From IMG/VR virus record IMGVR_UViG_3300030379_000158: a DNA stretch of 64,000 bases, one strand, 5' to 3'. Every line of letters starts with the position of its first letter. Positions within the stretch are counted from its first letter, which is position 1. Source of the stretch: a virus (lineage: Duplodnaviria > Heunggongvirae > Uroviricota > Caudoviricetes). Shown piece by piece: positions 26,222-31,928 of the stretch. The translations under genes and the position numbers were made by a program. The notes below the pieces were generated by a model, which worked only from the letters and a program-made list of their open reading frames with translations, made no database searches and had not been told where the DNA came from.

Positions 26222-26238
26222 TATTTATTAGAGCAATT
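26222..26238 (-). promoter_or_regulatory. C1 operator-like site
   Basis: ATATTTATTAGAGCAATTA. Confidence 0.55.
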
Positions 26239-26743
26239 ATTGTTGATGAAGAAGCGCGTTTTCATACTCCCTGACCATTAACGTAAGCACGCCGTGCCTC
26301 CTGAAAACACGCGCCACTTCAATCTTATCTTCCAGCGCGAACGCGATTTTACTTAGACCAATTTTCTTAAGGAGATCAATCTTTGCTGGGCCGTCATTTC
26401 TGTCATCGGTGGCAGGACGCATAGATAGCAAAGGCTCAGCCCCATTTGTTACGTGCTTACGCAACCAAGCTCGTGTTTTATCCCTGGCTATCTCACTGCG
26501 CCCGGTTACAAACCAGAGCGTGTAAATGCTGGACAACTGGCGCACCATATCAATAACTGGAGTGATGGGAGCATCAGTGTCACAGGCAAGGTTAAACTCG
26601 TTCCAGTGCTCTGTTAATGCACCTTTGCCAGGTGGTGGAAGTAAATGCAGCCTGTCTTCCGTTGCCTCTGATATTGTTCCATCAATATCAACTATGACGA
26701 TATACGGACGTTCCTGGTGTGCGTGTTTATTGAAAATACTCAA
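26237..26743 (-). CDS. HAD-superfamily phosphatase-like protein (168 aa), TTG start
   Basis: N-terminal VIVDIDGT motif typical of HAD phosphatases; GAGGAGG RBS before TTG. Confidence 0.55.
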   Translation of the reverse strand: MSIFNKHAHQERPYIVIVDIDGTISEATEDRLHLLPPPGKGALTEHWNEFNLACDTDAPITPVIDMVRQLSSIYTLWFVTGRSEIARDKTRAWLRKHVTNGAEPLLSMRPATDDRNDGPAKIDLLKKIGLSKIAFALEDKIEVARVFRRHGVLTLMVREYENALLHQQ

Positions 26744-26815
26744 ATGCCCTCCTCATTGGACGAAAAAAATGCTGGTGGGCGCACTCCACCAGCATTAAAA
26801 GTGACACTGTAACTG

Positions 26816-28078
26816 TCAGCGAACGTAAATAGTGCCGCCGTTCTCTTTTTCCCATGCATCGCTACGTGCATAGCAAACATCGAGAAGTCTTCTTGCCGCT
26901 GTTTCCTCTAAACCCAATTCGACAACCAACTGCTCATGACGGCGGGTAACCACATCAAACAGGGTATGCAGCCCTTTAGCTGCCAGATCATCAATAAATT
27001 CCGGTTCGAACGGCAGCTCTGCCTCTGCCAACATAACCTCTTGCGCCCACTCAACTCGACGGACCAGTTCCGGGCGGCGGCTTTCCATCTCTTTACAGAT
27101 CAATTCATGGAAGAACTCTACCCAACCTTCCGGCTGGAACTCGCGGAAAATGGCCAACGGCTGGAAGTTTGGCATCAACCATTCGTTGATCCGGATATCA
27201 ATGGCATAGCCCATGTCGCAGCAGAACTGATAAGCAAAGTCCAGCTTAGAAACGATATAAGGACGCTCGTTATTGAACTCTTTAGGCGATGAGATCCCAT
27301 AAGCCAGGAGGCGCGGGAAGAAGGAGATTTGCCCTAACGTCGGATGAAGTTTGCTTGCAGGGAAACGGCGCTCAGTAATGCCATACATTTCCTTCTTGAG
27401 CGTCGCAAATTTGGCATTCTCATTAACCAGCGCGGTAACCTCTGCTTTTTTATTAGCAAATGCCACGCGCGCCTCGCTTGCATCTTTAATAGTTTTTTTG
27501 AGCTGTTGGTTAAGGTCGGCAACCTGCTTACGCAGTTCCTGTCGCTCGCTTTTAGCTTTGTTATAGCGTTTCTCAAGGTTAAAAGGATCAAGTTTCATGA
27601 TCTCTTTATATTGAGATTTTAGCGTTGAAATCTGTGAGTTCCGCAGTTCAACCATCGCGGTCATTTCATTGAGTTTTGTTTCCAGCTCAATGCTTATACG
27701 TTCGGCATTATCAGCACGCTGGTTGGCGTCATGCGTCGCATCGTCGATCGCGTCCTGTTGCTGGCGTTTCAAATGTTCAATTTCCAGCTGAAGCTCTTCA
27801 ATTTCTTTACCCTTCAGACCGAGATCCAACTGCATATTTTCAGCTGCATCTACCAGGGAGTTATGGCTATCAGCTTCTGCGTTATAAACATCAATAAGCT
27901 GTGCGTGAAGCATCTCCGCTGACTGAACCGCATTATCAAAAAAACGCGCTGTGAGGTCATCACAACTAACGCGGCGTTGCGCGGCCCGGATGTTCTGGAT
28001 AATGGCCGGGATACCGGCATTCAGGACGTCAGGGATAGATACATTTTCGATTGATTGGTTTTGTGCTGAAGTGCTCAT
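26816..28078 (-). CDS. Hypothetical protein with N-terminal coiled coil (420 aa)
   Basis: Track ORF; paired C1 operator-like sites upstream. Confidence 0.55.
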   Translation of the reverse strand: MSTSAQNQSIENVSIPDVLNAGIPAIIQNIRAAQRRVSCDDLTARFFDNAVQSAEMLHAQLIDVYNAEADSHNSLVDAAENMQLDLGLKGKEIEELQLEIEHLKRQQQDAIDDATHDANQRADNAERISIELETKLNEMTAMVELRNSQISTLKSQYKEIMKLDPFNLEKRYNKAKSERQELRKQVADLNQQLKKTIKDASEARVAFANKKAEVTALVNENAKFATLKKEMYGITERRFPASKLHPTLGQISFFPRLLAYGISSPKEFNNERPYIVSKLDFAYQFCCDMGYAIDIRINEWLMPNFQPLAIFREFQPEGWVEFFHELICKEMESRRPELVRRVEWAQEVMLAEAELPFEPEFIDDLAAKGLHTLFDVVTRRHEQLVVELGLEETAARRLLDVCYARSDAWEKENGGTIYVR

Positions 28079-28312
28079 TTCAAAGTTCCGTATTAGCTTG
28101 TGCTTCGGTCATTTTTCCTAAGTATGAAGGAGGAAGGACGACGCAATTTGTATCCAGTCCCTCACCTATGGCAGCCTGTAAAATTCTGGCTAAGGTGAGT
28201 CTCTTATTGCGATACCTGGTGATGACATGCCTGATACCGCCGGTCGGCGTAACAAAGGCGATCAGCCAGTAGTGATATTTCCGTCGGAATGGCCACATAG
28301 TGCACCTTATAG

Positions 28313-28329
28313 ATTGCTCTAATAAAAAA
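28313..28329 (+). promoter_or_regulatory. C1 operator-like site (left member of inverted pair)
   Basis: ATTGCTCTAATAAAAAA. Confidence 0.55.
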
Positions 28330-28363
28330 CGTGATGAGTGTACATCACGTTTTAAAAATATGG

Positions 28364-29770: not shown

Positions 29771-30378
29771 TCTTTAAGAGTCATCTGCGGAATACCTCCC
29801 ATTTTCCCGCATGAAACAACGTCAATCTGTTCACGCGCAGACTGGAATAACAAAGGCAGGTGACTTAGATTTTTTGGCGTGCCGCCGGAGTGAACGCGTG
29901 GTTCTTGCGTAGCGTCAACGCCCACCAGGGCTACATGTTTGAATCCGATATGGAAAGCCAGGTTCAGAGCACCATATGCACTATTGCCACTGGCAATTTC
30001 ATTCTCATCTTCACAAAGGCCGAAATGTGCGGACCAGCGCCACGCCCACCACTCGGGAGAATTCGTATTTTTTGGCTCGATGCCGCGTTCAGCCACACGA
30101 CGGAAGCACAGAACGCCGTCTCTGACTTCACGTTCTTTAACATCGGGTAGTGCCATGCAATAACAAACACCACGGCGACGGCGGCCACGACCAACGCGCC
30201 GCATATTGTCTGGGGATGGATCAAGGGTGAAAAAATAAGAAGCGCGGTTAAGCCAGTCGATAGCCCCATTGACCGCTATAATCGGCACTCCGCGCGGCGC
30301 AACAAAGTTTGCGGCGCTTGGGCCACTGCCGACGATAATAACGCGATCACTGCCTCTAAATTTATTCTTGGGAAACAT
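29752..30378 (-). CDS. DUF115/MptE-like (motility-accessory-factor-like) protein, paralog A (208 aa)
   Basis: N-terminal VGSGPS...IAVN motif; similar to upstream neighbour. Confidence 0.45.
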
Positions 30379-30938
30379 TGAATTGCACTGCTCCTACTTG
30401 CATTCAAAATATGTAAATCTGCGTGTTTTTTGCGGGTATCCAAGAACTGCTGTTGCCATTTTGAAATAGACACCTGCGTTGGATTCCGTAGGGCTTGAGG
30501 GTGCGCACCATGCCAATGAAGGCCGTTTTGCAGAGAACAGTCATAGCCGACTAATACCACTACTTCAGCCCCTGATTCAGCAGCCAGACTGATAGCCTGC
30601 GCGCCGCTATTTACCCCTTCCGCCGGTCCACAATATCGCCTGTACTCCAACGAAAATGATTTCGCCGCCGCCAGGTTGGCTGTCACTTTGCGGAATCTCC
30701 CTCCCGGTATGGTGGAGCCGTATTGCTTCCACCATGACAAATCACCGGCGTATAAGGCATAAATGTCATCGAACATCTGCCAGGAATTGTTAACCGCGAT
30801 GATTGAACAGCCAGTTTTTTCTATAGCAGCACAGTCCTCACGAGTGAGTGACGGACCGCTACCGACACAAAAAACAGTCCTAGTCGCCCTGGGTGGTATG
30901 TTCATTCTCAGCTGCAAATTCAGCCTCCAGGCGAGCAT
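30276..30938 (-). CDS. DUF115/MptE-like protein, paralog B (220 aa)
   Basis: VGSGPSL...IAVN motif; overlaps next gene by about 100 bp. Confidence 0.45.
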   Translation of the reverse strand: MLAWRLNLQLRMNIPPRATRTVFCVGSGPSLTREDCAAIEKTGCSIIAVNNSWQMFDDIYALYAGDLSWWKQYGSTIPGGRFRKVTANLAAAKSFSLEYRRYCGPAEGVNSGAQAISLAAESGAEVVVLVGYDCSLQNGLHWHGAHPQALRNPTQVSISKWQQQFLDTRKKHADLHILNASRSSAIQCFPRINLEAVIALLSSAVAQAPQTLLRRAECRL

Positions 30939-31101
30939 TCATTTCAGCGATTACAGGGTCCACTACAGCATCTGTTTCCTGTTCATTACGCGGCATGATC
31001 GATGCCAGCGATTCATAATTAGCCTTGGATGACACGATTATTCTCCCGATGTTAATGTGCGCTATATCAAATGGCGCATATGTACTAATTAATTTATTAT
31101 T

Positions 31102-31680
31102 TTAAGCAGCATACAACCACTTGTCGCCGTTCAATACATGCTCAATAGCCTCACCCTTTTTAAGGCTCATGTATTCCAGGATGGCGGTTATCGCTTGTTC
31201 TGCACCATACGCAAGAACGACGTAGTAACCTTCCTCTCTAAGCCTGCGCATCCAGGCGATCTGCTCTTGCGTCGGGGCTTTACAATTTGGTTCTTTAAGC
31301 TCAATTCGCATGCCGTGATAAATACCGCATGCTTTATCGAGACTCATGTCCGGATAACCTTTTTTCTGCCCTTCAGCCTTCATTTTCCCGGCGGTTGCTT
31401 TTGAACGTTTCCCTCCGTTAGGCGTTGCATGCAACAGCTCATAGATGTCAGGGTGCTTGCGTTCGAAGTAATCAAAAATGAAAACCTGCTCGAAGTGCTC
31501 GCAATTTCCGTCGCGCAGGTCTGGGTTCTTTGCCAGTGCTGCAAGTGCCTTCGCATGTGGAGAAACTTCTTTTACCGGCGCAAGCGATAAGAATGGATCC
31601 TTTTTGGTTTTTGGCCTGGACCGCCCCTTATTTCGACGCTCACTAAAAGCCTGAAACTCTTCCTCAGTAAAGCGCAACAT
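31102..31680 (-). CDS. VRR-NUC-type nuclease-like protein (192 aa)
   Basis: GYPDM...IELK motif pattern; weak call. Confidence 0.45.
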   Translation of the reverse strand: MLRFTEEEFQAFSERRNKGRSRPKTKKDPFLSLAPVKEVSPHAKALAALAKNPDLRDGNCEHFEQVFIFDYFERKHPDIYELLHATPNGGKRSKATAGKMKAEGQKKGYPDMSLDKACGIYHGMRIELKEPNCKAPTQEQIAWMRRLREEGYYVVLAYGAEQAITAILEYMSLKKGEAIEHVLNGDKWLYAA

Positions 31681-31682
31681 AA

Positions 31683-31928
31683 TCAGTCAAATCCTGCCGG
31701 TCGCATGCCATATTTACGCTGTTTTGCGGCCTGCTCTTCCCTGTGCCATTGCGCACATTCAGCGTCACAATAAATGCCTGATTCAATCGATTCATTGCAG
31801 TAACGACACTTCCCTGTAAATACCTGGCTCACGACCTGTGCCTGCTTTCTGATGTTATCGATGGCCATGTCTTTGAGAGCTTCTAACTGATTCATGCTCA
31901 GCTCTGCATCATCAACACGTTCTGCCAA
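31683..31928 (-). CDS. TraR/DksA-like C4 zinc-finger protein (81 aa)
   Basis: CRYC...C..C motif in C-terminal half. Confidence 0.5.
   Translation of the reverse strand: MAERVDDAELSMNQLEALKDMAIDNIRKQAQVVSQVFTGKCRYCNESIESGIYCDAECAQWHREEQAAKQRKYGMRPAGFD

What the first reader, a model, noticed from the sequence alone, without database searches (positions are those of the whole stretch)
26237..31928. Leftward cluster combining two DUF115/MptE-like paralogs, a DxD glycosyltransferase-like protein, a Ser/Thr phosphatase, a HAD phosphatase and a VRR-NUC-like nuclease
Read from motifs: VGSGPS...IAVN in two adjacent paralogs, YLDLDTV in the next ORF, GDLHG/GDLIDRG/GNHE in the phosphatase, VIVDIDGT in the HAD protein. 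Together they look like a sugar or nucleotide modification pathway, which could modify DNA or virion proteins, or act against host defence. I cannot tell from memory which of these are standard P1 genes. A pair of inverted C1 operator-like sites (28313-28380) splits the cluster into two transcription units.
Basis: inference. Interest (0 to 1): 0.45.

Follow-up and report, generated by a model that had tools for sequence, protein, structure and literature searches.

The report
P1 pmg cluster with glycosyltransferase module
This stretch is the long-annotated pmgL-to-pap region of bacteriophage P1; most of its genes are dispensable in the laboratory, but three of them (pmgO, pmgP, pmgQ) form a sugar-transferase module, with an unknown target, that also sits beside capsid and tail genes in many unrelated phages of Gram-negative bacteria.

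Summary
Window 26237-31928 (minus strand) is 98% identical to phage P1 and contains, gene for gene, pmgL, pmgM, pmgN, pmgO, pmgP, ppp, pmgQ | pmgR, pmgS, pap. The inverted operator pair is P1's Op86a/b.

The "single pathway" reading is only partly right. Outside the P1 lineage only pmgO, pmgP and pmgQ travel together. They occur in the same order in a Citrobacter lambdoid prophage, and O-Q pairs sit directly after the capsid gene in an HK97-like phage lineage. They are often interleaved with further glycosyltransferases and methyltransferases, and O-P and O-X fusions exist. ppp, pap, pmgM, pmgL, pmgR and pmgS are P1-lineage neighbours.

Published knockouts of every gene except pmgR (essential for joining heads and tails) plate normally and show normal type I restriction.

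My best reading is a soluble glycosylation module, switched on during lytic growth, that most likely decorates a virion protein. The acceptor is unproven. The locus itself is already known, so interest is modest.

The parts
26221..26237 (-). C1 operator Op88 (OpmgT), abutting the pap stop codon; it heads the next operon downstream
   Evidence: 1 mismatch to the C1 consensus. Annotated in P1 at the equivalent position.
26237..26743 (-). pap: HAD-superfamily phosphatase (DxDGT motif) resembling the phosphatase domain of polynucleotide kinase-phosphatases. P1-lineage neighbour, not part of the conserved module.
   Evidence: Pfam HAD_PNKP 2.4e-12, above the gathering score. PHROG 415 'polynucleotide kinase' 6.5e-56. 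Weak match to Pnkp1 4xrp, 0.0024. Knockout has no phenotype.
26768..26796 (-). Terminator-like hairpin (11-bp stem followed by TTTTT) between pmgS and pap
   Evidence: Pattern scan. Not annotated in P1.
26816..28078 (-). pmgS: 420-aa protein with a coiled coil, function unknown
   Evidence: PHROG 1660 'PmgS-like head morphogenesis' 4e-195. Only coiled-coil noise in Pfam, NCBIfam, PADLOC and PDB. Knockout has no phenotype. Among the 21 most conserved genes of P1-like phage-plasmids.
28080..28298 (-). [quoted passage not shown]
   Evidence: The P1 knockout yields unjoined heads and tails and is complemented in trans (PMC9024508). No family match beyond PHROG 3177.
28313..28329 (+). C1 operator Op86b
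   Evidence: P1 annotation.
28330..28349 (.). Perfect 7-bp hairpin CGTGATG-agtgta-CATCACG flanked by A6 and T4 runs, between the two operators. On the gene strand it is followed by TTTTTT, so it may be the terminator of the pmgN-Q unit. It overlaps the annotated PpmgR -10 hexamer.
   Evidence: Read directly from the sequence. PpmgR position comes from the P1 annotation.
28362..28378 (-). C1 operator Op86a, overlapping the -35 of PpmgR
   Evidence: P1 annotation.
28380..29081 (-). pmgQ: soluble GT8-fold (GT-A, DxD) glycosyltransferase. Member of the conserved module.
   Evidence: AF2 model pLDDT 95.1. Foldseek: Skp1 alpha-GalT 9e-9, glycogenin, WbbM, LgtC, GlyE. Invariant D79, L80, D81, D149, H208 in 45 homologs. 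No Pfam hit. PHROG 1962 'glycosyltransferase'.
29078..29770 (-). ppp: lambda NinI-type PPP-family Ser/Thr phosphatase. An insertion into the module that is specific to part of the P1 lineage.
   Evidence: Metallophos 1.2e-15. PrpA/PrpB models 5e-82 and 5e-72, below the equivalog cut-off. 64% identical to the lambda phosphatase according to the P1 annotation. Absent from P1-like L051 and from all non-P1 modules.
29752..30378 (-). pmgP: second, distant DUF115/MptE/Maf-like protein. Member of the conserved module. It lacks PmgO's HWHGxH motif.
   Evidence: Pfam MptE-like 3.3e-4, below the gathering score. hhalign against the PmgO family: 97.6%, E 3e-12. 330 homologs. Fused to PmgO in P0171.
30276..30938 (-). 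pmgO: Maf/GT42/MptE-fold protein. The universal component of the conserved module.
30880..31035 (-). pmgN: 51-aa ORF of unknown function at the head of the pmgN-Q unit
   Evidence: PHROG 2350 only. Essential by CRISPRi but dispensable by deletion.
31079..31095 (+). Position of P1 operator Op83 (Oppp). Degenerate here, with 5 mismatches to the consensus against 4 in P1.
   Evidence: Alignment with P1. Not found at 3 or fewer mismatches.
31102..31680 (-). pmgM: VRR-NUC (PD-ExK) nuclease, probably a junction- or branch-resolving enzyme. P1-lineage neighbour.
   Evidence: PDB 4qbl VRR-NUC 1.4e-16, with GYPD...IExK aligned. PHROG 5702 'Holliday junction resolvase' 1e-25. Pfam VRR_NUC 1.2e-3, below the gathering score.
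31683..31928 (-). pmgL: 81-aa DksA/TraR-like zinc-finger protein. P1-lineage neighbour.
   Evidence: PHROG 54 'DksA-like zinc-finger protein' 1.6e-12. Four cysteines, CxxC-x9-CxxxC.
31986..32002 (+). C1 operator Op82 (O26) in the divergent pmgL/26 promoter region, which also carries the late promoters LPpmgL and LP26
   Evidence: 2 mismatches to the consensus. The region is 98% identical to P1. Annotated in P1.

Best explanation
Shown. The region is bacteriophage P1's pmgL-pap segment. It is a mosaic of separate units, not one pathway:
(i) pmgL (DksA/TraR-like zinc finger) and pmgM (VRR-NUC nuclease);
(ii) pmgN-pmgO-pmgP-ppp-pmgQ;
(iii) pmgR (essential head-tail joining factor)-pmgS-pap.
These units lie behind C1-repressed promoters, with a late promoter upstream of pmgL, so they are silent in the lysogen and expressed during lytic growth.

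Shown. The only part that behaves as a functional module across phages is PmgO + PmgP + PmgQ. PmgO and PmgP are distantly related soluble proteins with the Maf / GT42-sialyltransferase / MptE fold and the nucleotide-binding GxGPS...N and SG...GxD motifs. PmgQ is a soluble GT8-fold, DxD (metal-dependent, retaining-type) glycosyltransferase.

Inferred. PmgO and PmgP act as a pair, and PmgO, the universal component, puts the first sugar on a cytoplasmic acceptor. PmgQ then extends it from a UDP-hexose; in other phages GT2, GT4-like or GT9-like enzymes do the extending and methyltransferases cap the glycan. The acceptor is most likely a virion structural protein modified during assembly, as in mycobacteriophage virion glycosylation.

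ppp is a lambda-type phosphatase inserted into this operon in part of the P1 lineage, and it has no conserved link to the module.
For: Identity of the locus.

Regulation: operators; the promoter region is 98% identical to P1.

Module behaviour: O-P-Q are contiguous and in the same order in the Citrobacter rodentium prophage and phage phiNP, without ppp. O lies upstream of Q in 19 of 34 distant viral loci, and 3 more are cut at the contig end. O-P (P0171) and O-X (L104) occur as single-ORF fusions.

Glycan-building partners: GT2, a GT1/GT4-like enzyme, and FkbM and other SAM-dependent methyltransferases lie inside or beside the module. CcrColossus has further glycosyltransferases.

Structural-gene neighbourhood: an HK97-type capsid gene lies immediately upstream of O in 13 loci including phage D3. 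Other neighbours are portal genes, tail-fibre genes, a minor-tail-like gene and giant tail proteins.

Precedent: mycobacteriophages glycosylate capsid and tail-tube proteins with their own glycosyltransferases (Freeman 2023, as cited in PMC12363180).
Against: No glycan has ever been reported on P1 virions, although the 2022 virion proteome did not look for one.

Single knockouts of pmgO, pmgP and pmgQ have no plaque phenotype. pmgQ is naturally interrupted in some P1-like contigs (L049, L050).

Phages carrying the module have different capsid types, so a common protein acceptor is not obvious. The 13 'after-capsid' cases belong to one related capsid lineage.

Capsids next to the module have no Ser/Thr-rich C-terminal extension of the mycobacteriophage kind.

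PmgO lacks the N- and C-terminal domains of true Maf proteins (220 aa against 632).

The fold is shared with pyrophosphokinases (MptE, thiamine pyrophosphokinase), so glycosyltransferase chemistry for PmgO and PmgP is inferred, not shown.

All identified hosts are Proteobacteria, which fits an LPS-related donor or acceptor equally well.
Confidence: 0.38

Rival explanations
1. The O/P/Q module modifies the host's LPS core, or another envelope glycolipid, on the cytoplasmic face during lytic growth. This could mask the P1 receptor (the terminal glucose of the LPS core) so that progeny are not lost on debris or on neighbouring infected cells.
For: The GT8 family, which PmgQ resembles, contains LPS/LOS core glycosyltransferases such as LgtC. 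GT42 enzymes, which resemble PmgO, act on lipooligosaccharide. CcrColossus carries a GT9 (heptosyltransferase-family) gene in its cluster, and protein X is weakly GT9-like. All hosts identified are Proteobacteria. From general knowledge, P1 adsorbs to the LPS core.
Against: The genes are C1-repressed, so this is not lysogenic conversion of the usual kind. Host core structures differ widely (Escherichia, Pseudomonas, Caulobacter, Xanthomonas, Pelagibacter) while the enzymes are conserved. There are no membrane or export components and no membrane segments. The genes sit beside capsid, connector and tail genes rather than in typical moron positions with their own promoters. New LPS made late in infection would replace little of the existing surface (inference).
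Confidence: 0.15
2. PmgO and PmgP are not glycosyltransferases but pyrophosphokinase-type or other nucleotide-dependent enzymes of the MptE / thiamine-pyrophosphokinase fold. Together with PmgQ they would modify a host protein or a small molecule, for example a metabolite or an immune signal, as a takeover or anti-defence function.
Against: The best structural match is the Maf glycosyltransferase, over 163 residues. The two conserved motifs align to the nucleotide-sugar-binding motifs of Cst-II. The partners are consistently glycosyltransferases and methyltransferases. There are no PADLOC hits. The neighbours are virion genes rather than early or anti-defence gene blocks.
Confidence: 0.17
3. 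The cluster glycosylates or otherwise hypermodifies phage DNA to evade restriction.
For: Phage glycosyltransferases that act on DNA exist (T-even phages). The genes are expressed during lytic growth. In the Citrobacter prophage the module lies downstream of several DNA methylase genes. A nuclease and phosphatases are nearby in P1.
Against: The window region contains no hydroxymethylase or other base-modifying partner. Knockouts show unchanged restriction on EcoA, EcoB and EcoK. From general knowledge, P1 DNA is cut normally by common restriction enzymes and relies on the Dar proteins and Dmt methylation. T4-type DNA glucosyltransferases have a different (GT-B) fold.
Confidence: 0.04
4. One reading: all six enzymes (two DUF115 proteins, the DxD transferase, the Ser/Thr phosphatase, the HAD phosphatase and the VRR-NUC nuclease) form one sugar or nucleotide modification pathway.
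For: They are adjacent, co-oriented and co-regulated by C1 in P1. ppp is translationally coupled between pmgP and pmgQ.
Against: Outside the P1 lineage none of ppp, pap, pmgM, pmgL or pmgS accompanies O/P/Q in more than 60 loci. P1-like L051 lacks ppp. The span also contains pmgR, a head-tail joining factor. Separate operators, promoters and terminator-like sites divide the span.
Confidence: 0.05

Closest known systems
Bacteriophage P1 reference genome, genes pmgL-pap (AF234172/AF234173, NC_005856; Lobocka et al. 2004 annotation), and the same region of P7, SJ46 and RCS47
   Same: 97.6-98.0% nucleotide identity over the full 5,692 bases, with identical gene order, overlaps and operators. RefSeq already labels PmgO 'alpha-2,3-sialyltransferase', PmgQ 'glycosyltransferase', Ppp 'metallophosphoesterase' and PmgM 'VRR-NUC domain-containing protein'.
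   Different: About 2% substitutions. Op83 has one more mismatch than in P1, and there is one change in the annotated -10 of LPpmgL. Downstream of pap the window follows the P7/SJ46 variant rather than P1's pmgT-V.
Maf (motility accessory factor) flagellin glycosyltransferases and GT42 sialyltransferases (Cst-I, Cst-II)
   Different: PmgO and PmgP are bare catalytic domains of about 200 aa without Maf's flanking domains. They come as a heterologous pair. They carry a family-specific invariant HWHGxH motif (PmgO only). The donor and acceptor are unknown, and E. coli K-12 makes no CMP-nonulosonic acid (general knowledge).
GT8 retaining glycosyltransferases (glycogenin, Skp1 alpha-galactosyltransferase, LgtC, GlyE)
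   Same: Same GT-A fold and an invariant DxD. Several members extend glycans on proteins.
   Different: No Pfam GT8 match. Sequence identity is 12-17%. PmgQ is shorter (233 aa).
Mycobacteriophage virion glycosylation (Che8, Corndog, Myrna; Freeman et al. 2023)
   Same: Phage-encoded soluble glycosyltransferases that are non-essential for plaque formation. In that system they decorate capsid and tail-tube proteins (as cited).
   Different: The enzyme families are apparently different and the hosts are different (Actinobacteria against Proteobacteria). Glycosylation of P1 virions has not been demonstrated. No C-terminal acceptor tail was seen on neighbouring capsids. I could not read the primary paper.
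Lambda NinI (lambda protein phosphatase) and E. coli PrpA/PrpB
   Same: Ppp has all the PPP-family motifs and is 64% identical to the lambda enzyme according to the P1 annotation.
   Different: It is embedded in a glycosyltransferase operon instead of the nin region. The physiological substrate is unknown in either phage.
Viral and bacterial VRR-NUC nucleases (PDB 4qbl)
   Same: PmgM residues 77-179 align at E 1.4e-16, with the GYPD...IExK catalytic motif conserved.
   Different: PmgM has an extra N-terminal region of about 75 residues. Its activity has not been tested.

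Membership tests
Bacteriophage P1 pmgL-pap locus | Near-identical nucleotide sequence with the same gene order and operators | tested here: met
   97.9% identity over 100% of the span to AF234172/AF234173, and gene-for-gene correspondence.
DUF115 / MptE-like (Pfam PF01973) | Score above Pfam's gathering threshold (34.6 bits) | tested here: not met
   PmgO scores 23.4 bits and PmgP 20.9 bits, each over only the last ~35 profile positions. Some homologs at 40-74% identity do carry precomputed PF01973 hits.
DUF115 / MptE-like (Pfam PF01973) | Shared three-dimensional fold with solved members (Maf 5mu5, MptE 8sd5) | tested here: met
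Maf flagellin glycosyltransferases | Three-domain architecture, with the central catalytic domain flanked by N- and C-terminal domains | tested here: not met
   PmgO is 220 aa and PmgP 208 aa. Only 163 residues align to the 632-residue Maf.
Maf flagellin glycosyltransferases | Transfer of a CMP-activated nonulosonic acid to Ser/Thr of a protein | not testable with these tools
   This needs enzymology. No nonulosonic-acid synthesis genes were seen near the module in any locus examined.
GT42 sialyltransferases (Cst-I/II) | N-terminal GxGPS...N motif and central SG...G-x-D nucleotide-sugar-binding motif | tested here: met
   The profile of 33 PmgO homologs aligns both motifs to Cst-II chains (E about 0.1 each, consistent across 9 chains). 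The residues are invariant in the family.
GT42 sialyltransferases (Cst-I/II) | Catalytic histidine equivalent to Cst-II His188 | tested here: inconclusive
   PmgO has invariant H141 and H143 and nearly invariant H146 about 8-13 residues after the GxD motif, but no residue-level structural superposition was available. The Cst-II residue number is from memory.
GT8 glycosyltransferases | GT-A fold with a DxD metal- and nucleotide-binding motif | tested here: met
   Foldseek probability 1.00, E 9e-9 to 1e-6, to glycogenin, Skp1 alpha-GalT, LgtC, WbbM and GlyE. D79-L80-D81 is invariant in 45 sequences.
GT8 glycosyltransferases | Match to the curated sequence family | tested here: not met
   PmgQ has no Pfam or NCBIfam hit. 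The best PDB sequence hit has E 0.086.
PPP-family Ser/Thr phosphatases (lambda phosphatase type) | GDxHG, GDxxDRG and GNHE motifs, with Metallophos above threshold | tested here: met
   All three motifs are present. Metallophos scores 58.9 bits against a cut-off of 21.5. The PrpA equivalog model scores 275 against a cut-off of 326, so Ppp is not an equivalog of PrpA.
HAD phosphatases, PNKP-phosphatase-like | DxDGT nucleophile motif, with family score above threshold | tested here: met
   VDIDGT is present near the N-terminus within IVIVDIDGT. PF25109 scores 47.6 bits against 27.6. No kinase domain is present.
VRR-NUC nucleases | PD-(D/E)xK catalytic core and similarity to solved members | tested here: met
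   4qbl at E 1.4e-16, with GYPD...IELK aligned to GYPD...IEIK. The Pfam score of 19.3 is below the 23.8 cut-off.
P1 C1 repressor operators | 17-bp asymmetric site ATTGCTCTAATAAATTT | tested here: met
   28313-28329 (+) and 28362-28378 (-), 3 mismatches each. There are 14 sites in the window against 0.32 expected. Binding was not tested here.
Phage virion glycosylation systems (mycobacteriophage type) | Glycans on virion structural proteins that depend on the phage's glycosyltransferases | not testable with these tools
   Only gene-neighbourhood evidence is available. The search for capsid C-terminal acceptor tails was inconclusive.

The most novel reading that the evidence does not exclude
P1, along with thousands of other phages and prophages of Proteobacteria (D3-like Pseudomonas phages, lambdoid prophages, and jumbo phages of Klebsiella, Xanthomonas and Caulobacter), carries a previously unrecognised virion-protein glycosylation system. 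It would be built around a minimal Maf-like initiating transferase (PmgO, paired with PmgP or X) plus exchangeable extending glycosyltransferases and methyltransferases. In hosts such as E. coli K-12 that lack nonulosonic acids, it may use CMP-Kdo as the donor. This would be the counterpart, in phages of Gram-negative bacteria, of mycobacteriophage capsid glycosylation, present in a phage that has been a laboratory workhorse for 70 years.
Probability: 0.22. Interest if true: 0.7.

Novelty: already known. Interest (0 to 1): 0.3.

Why it matters
As it stands the finding re-identifies a region of the P1 reference genome, and the domain-level labels are already in RefSeq and PHROGs. It does not change what is known about P1.

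What remains open is the function of pmgO, pmgP and pmgQ, which has never been tested beyond the observation that they are dispensable. This analysis shows that they are a mobile three-part module with a very large family (3,057 cluster representatives), natural fusions and a recurrent position beside capsid and tail genes.

If the module glycosylates virions, that would bear on how phages of Gram-negative bacteria are recognised by antibodies and innate immunity, which is relevant to phage therapy. It would also bear on particle stability and adsorption, and on the use of P1 as a delivery vehicle. It would also give an easily manipulated model system, because P1 knockouts already exist.

Tried and rejected
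- PADLOC scan of all ten proteins: only coiled-coil noise for PmgS.
- Sequence searches of PmgO, PmgQ, PmgP and PmgS against PDB chains: nothing significant. Fold search was needed.
- hhalign of A1 against A7 gave E 1e-76, but that was an artefact of the O-P fusion protein inside A1. I repeated it with the fusion-free A6.
The rerun used one strict pattern and returned only 24 loci, so host range is under-sampled.
- I tested whether capsids next to the module carry Ser/Thr-rich C-terminal extensions like glycosylated mycobacteriophage capsids. They have only 5-10-residue tails with a few Ser/Thr, so the result is inconclusive.
- I tested whether protein X of the alternative module is a GT9 heptosyltransferase. 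The support is only weak (E 0.34 to WaaF, 0.069 to Pfam GT9 in one of ten members).
- I considered programmed -1 frameshifting to make a PmgO-PmgP fusion in P1. Two slippery heptamers lie in the overlap, but a shift there would delete PmgO's conserved C-terminal helix, and other lineages have only a 4-nt overlap. I judged it probably coincidental.
- I could not obtain the primary paper on mycobacteriophage glycosylation.
- Literature searches for Maf/DUF115 in phages, for the P7 gene names and for glycosylated capsids of Gram-negative phages found nothing relevant.
- I did not establish the basis for the 'structural protein' label on PAJU2 ORF010.

Full report
**1. What is there**

Megablast of 26237-31928 finds 19 full-length matches at 97.5-98.0% identity: RCS47, JL22, P1, P7, SJ46 and other P1-like phages.

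The P1 GenBank and RefSeq annotations identify the genes as follows.

| Gene | Window coordinates |
|---|---|
| pap | 26237-26743 |
| pmgS | 26816-28078 |
| pmgR | 28080-28298 |
| pmgQ | 28380-29081 |
| ppp | 29078-29770 |
| pmgP | 29752-30378 |
| pmgO | 30276-30938 |
| pmgN | 30880-31035 |
| pmgM | 31102-31680 |
| pmgL | 31683-31928 |

The window is therefore a P1-like phage or phage-plasmid, and the finding is a region annotated since 2004.

**2. Regulation**

A scan with the 17-bp C1 operator consensus gives 14 sites in the window against 0.32 expected. Four of them lie in or next to the span:
- 26221-26237, which is Op88;
- 31986-32002, which is Op82, in the divergent pmgL/gene 26 promoter region that also carries the late promoters.

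That promoter region is 98% identical to P1.

P1 also annotates Op83 and PpmgN between pmgM and pmgN. Here that site has 5 mismatches to the consensus against 4 in P1.

A perfect 7-bp hairpin flanked by A and T runs lies between Op86a and Op86b. An 11-bp terminator-like hairpin lies between pmgS and pap.

The span therefore has at least three units, pmgL-M, pmgN-Q and pmgR-S(-pap), rather than two. All are repressed in the lysogen.

**3. What each protein is**

Results come from Pfam, PHROGs, NCBIfam and PADLOC and from PDB sequence searches.

- **Ppp** is a PPP-family phosphatase. Metallophos scores 1e-15 and the PrpA/PrpB models 5e-82 but below the equivalog cut-off. It is 64% identical to the lambda phosphatase according to the P1 annotation.
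- **Pap** is a HAD phosphatase most like the phosphatase domain of polynucleotide kinase-phosphatases. PF25109 scores 2e-12, and there is a weak match to Pnkp1.
- **PmgM** is a VRR-NUC nuclease. It matches 4qbl at 1.4e-16 with the catalytic GYPD...IExK aligned, although Pfam's own score is below threshold.
- **PmgL** is a DksA/TraR-like zinc finger (PHROG 54, 1.6e-12).
- **PmgS** is a coiled-coil protein with no informative match.
- **PmgR and PmgN** match only phage families of unknown function.
- **PmgO and PmgP** touch Pfam MptE-like only below threshold (23.4 and 20.9 bits against 34.6).
- **PmgQ** has no Pfam match.

**4. Structures of PmgO and PmgQ**

With alignments of 33 and 45 homologs, AlphaFold2 gave confident models: PmgO pLDDT 87.9 and PmgQ 95.1.

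Foldseek places PmgQ in GT8, matching the Skp1 alpha-galactosyltransferase, glycogenin, WbbM, LgtC and GlyE at E 1e-8 to 1e-6. Its D79-L-D81 is invariant.

PmgO and PmgP share only the N-terminal motif by BLASTP. They are nonetheless homologous profile-to-profile (97.6%, E 3e-12, 163 columns). PmgO's invariant HWHGxH motif is not conserved in PmgP.

None of the ten proteins has a membrane-like segment.

**5. Which genes belong together**

- The Citrobacter rodentium prophage (also phage phiNP) has PmgO-, PmgP- and PmgQ-like genes contiguous and in the same order, between the lysis cassette and the terminase, with no ppp.
- An Onishia prophage has an O-Q pair exactly between the major capsid gene and the head-tail connector gene.
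- Of 34 distant viral contigs found through PmgQ (35-44% identity), 19 have a PmgO-like gene upstream on the same strand, and three more are cut at the contig end.
- A 376-aa protein (P0171) is a natural PmgO-PmgP fusion.
- A second module type pairs PmgO with a ~280-aa protein X and a SAM-dependent methyltransferase. It occurs in a Hafnia prophage, Pseudomonas phages D3 and PAJU2, the Klebsiella jumbo phage Eowyn and many enterobacterial prophages. One MAG encodes an O-X fusion. X is only weakly GT-B/GT9-like.
- Genes inside or next to the modules include GT2 enzymes, a GT1/GT4-like enzyme, and FkbM-type and other methyltransferases. CcrColossus adds a nucleotide-diphospho-sugar transferase and a GT9.
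- By contrast, ppp, pap, pmgM, pmgL, pmgS and pmgR accompany O/P/Q only in P1-like elements. One P1-like contig (L051) has M-O-P-Q-R without ppp.
- The PmgO family is large, with 3,057 representatives of 50%-identity clusters at E<=1e-10, mostly ~190-aa single-domain proteins and some longer proteins.

**6. Where the module sits**

The ORF immediately upstream of PmgO is an HK97-type capsid protein in 13 loci, including phage D3. These capsids are related to each other (30-74% identity), so this is one broad lineage and not 13 independent events.

Other neighbours are portal proteins, tail fibres, a minor-tail-like protein in phiNP, and giant tail proteins in CcrColossus. In P1 the cluster is divergent from the tail and baseplate genes 26, 25, 7 and 24.

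The P7 annotators called these genes 'head morphogenesis' and had already noted the similarity of HdmB (PmgO) to D3 orf7.

All hosts I could identify are Proteobacteria, apart from one MAG labelled Spirochaetales.

**7. What experiments already say**

Gonzales et al. 2022 made in-frame deletions of pmgL, M, N, O, P, ppp, Q, S and pap. All plated normally and showed parental restriction on EcoA, EcoB and EcoK. pmgR was essential, giving unjoined heads and tails, and was complemented in trans. [quoted passage not shown]

The CRISPRi map of Piya et al. 2023 agrees, with two exceptions. pmgN scored as essential, contradicting the deletion, and pmgR was missed.

pmgR and pmgS are among the 21 most conserved genes of 77 P1-like phage-plasmids.

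pmgQ is interrupted in some natural P1-like contigs (L049, L050).

**8. Interpretation**

*Shown.* The locus is P1's. The family and fold assignments hold. O/P/Q form a conserved, mobile, soluble module whose partners are glycan-building enzymes. It is repressed in lysogeny.

*Inferred.* PmgO (with PmgP or X) initiates a short glycan and PmgQ (or other glycosyltransferases) extends it on a cytoplasmic acceptor. I favour a virion protein as the acceptor (confidence about 0.38) for four reasons:
- the module sits beside structural genes;
- its closest structural relative, Maf, glycosylates a self-assembling structural protein in the cytoplasm;
- none of the neighbouring genes scanned matched a lipid-carrier or export component;
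- mycobacteriophages provide a precedent.

Several points count against this. No P1 glycoprotein is known. Capsid types differ among carriers of the module. No acceptor-like capsid tail was found. The restriction to Proteobacteria fits an LPS-related donor or acceptor as well.

*Rivals.*
- LPS-core or receptor modification: 0.15.
- Non-glycosyltransferase chemistry, or a host-protein or small-molecule target: 0.17.
- DNA modification: 0.04. It is disfavoured by the knockouts, by the absence of any base-modifying partner, and by the long-known normal restriction-enzyme digestion of P1 DNA (general knowledge).

**9. Comparison and novelty**

The locus itself is already known, and its domain labels are already in RefSeq and PHROGs. 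In the literature I could search, I found no description of the O/P/Q module as a unit, its fusions, its alternative O-X-methyltransferase form or its structural-gene neighbourhood.

That makes a concrete and cheap experiment possible, because the P1 deletions exist. As a scan finding, though, it is a rediscovery with a partly correct interpretation. Interest is 0.3. The most novel reading not excluded is a widespread Maf-like virion glycosylation system in phages of Gram-negative bacteria, with probability about 0.22.

Noticed in passing
window 30276-30378 (pmgO/pmgP overlap): pmgO and pmgP overlap by 103 nt, and pmgP is in the -1 frame relative to pmgO. Two formal -1 slippery heptamers in the pmgO frame (TTTCCCA at 30375, AAATTTA at 30363) lie just after the pmgP start codon. 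About 0.13 would be expected by chance in 34 codons. Natural O-P fusions exist elsewhere. However, a shift here would remove PmgO's conserved C-terminal helix, and the Citrobacter module has only a 4-nt overlap, so this is probably a by-product of dual coding.
   Followed up: partly
window 28330-28349: A perfect hairpin, CGTGATG-agtgta-CATCACG, flanked by A6 and T4 runs lies exactly between operators Op86b and Op86a and overlaps the annotated PpmgR -10. On the gene strand it is followed by TTTTTT, so it could terminate the pmgN-Q unit. It is not annotated in P1, and the pattern scan missed it because the A/T runs extend the stem.
   Followed up: partly
window 26768-26796 (-): A strong terminator-like hairpin (11-bp stem, 6 G-C pairs, followed by TTTTT) lies between pmgS and pap. 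It suggests that pap is expressed mainly by read-through or separately. It is not annotated in P1.
   Followed up: no
window 31079-31095 and about 32017-32022: The P1 operator Op83 is more degenerate here (5 mismatches against 4 in P1, including a C-to-T change in the GC core). There is also a single substitution in the annotated -10 hexamer of the late promoter LPpmgL (AATATT in P1, AACATT here, on the gene strand).
   Followed up: partly
window 23894-26042 (-): Downstream of pap the window does not carry P1's pmgT-pmgU-pmgV. It carries the P7/SJ46-type variable segment: four ORFs including an Ead/Ea22-like protein (PF13935, 7e-38). Parts of this segment are shared at 90-99% identity with hundreds of lambdoid and Stx phages.
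   Followed up: partly
L004, L088 (D3), L089 (PAJU2), L092 (Eowyn), L096-L114; L104 4938-6476: There is a second widespread module: a PmgO-like gene, then protein X (~280 aa, no Pfam family, PHROG 6804, invariant CxC...HxC, weakly GT9-like), then a Methyltransf_23 methyltransferase. In one MAG, O and X are fused in a single 513-codon ORF.
   Followed up: partly
L089 3974-4543 (PAJU2 ORF010); GenBank record of phage Eowyn (H40): The PmgO-like protein is annotated 'structural protein' in PAJU2 and in the GenBank record of Eowyn. If that rests on virion mass spectrometry, the enzyme may be packaged. I could not find the basis. PmgO was not reported in the P1 virion proteome.
   Followed up: partly
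L049 4481-6501 and L050 5992-6698 (P1-like viral contigs): pmgQ is split by an insertion of about 1.2 kb in one P1-like contig and by a frameshift in another. This natural loss of function fits the gene's dispensability.
   Followed up: no
window 30880-31035 (pmgN): pmgN scored as essential in the CRISPRi screen (efficiency of plating 1.4e-2) but is dispensable by in-frame deletion. Knock-down of the downstream genes gave no defect, so simple polarity does not explain the difference.
   Followed up: no
L003 9796-10437 (Citrobacter rodentium prophage / phiNP): A 213-aa lysine/arginine-rich protein matching the PHROG 'minor tail protein' (6e-63) directly follows O-P-Q and precedes the terminase, an odd place for a tail gene. 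It could be a co-travelling acceptor or partner.
   Followed up: no
window 11108-11671, 14306, 17612, 42111-42138, 45644, 61768, 63438: Ten further C1-operator-like sites lie elsewhere in the window, including closely spaced or overlapping pairs at 11108/11191 and 42111/42122. This is consistent with the dispersed C1 regulon of P1.
   Followed up: no
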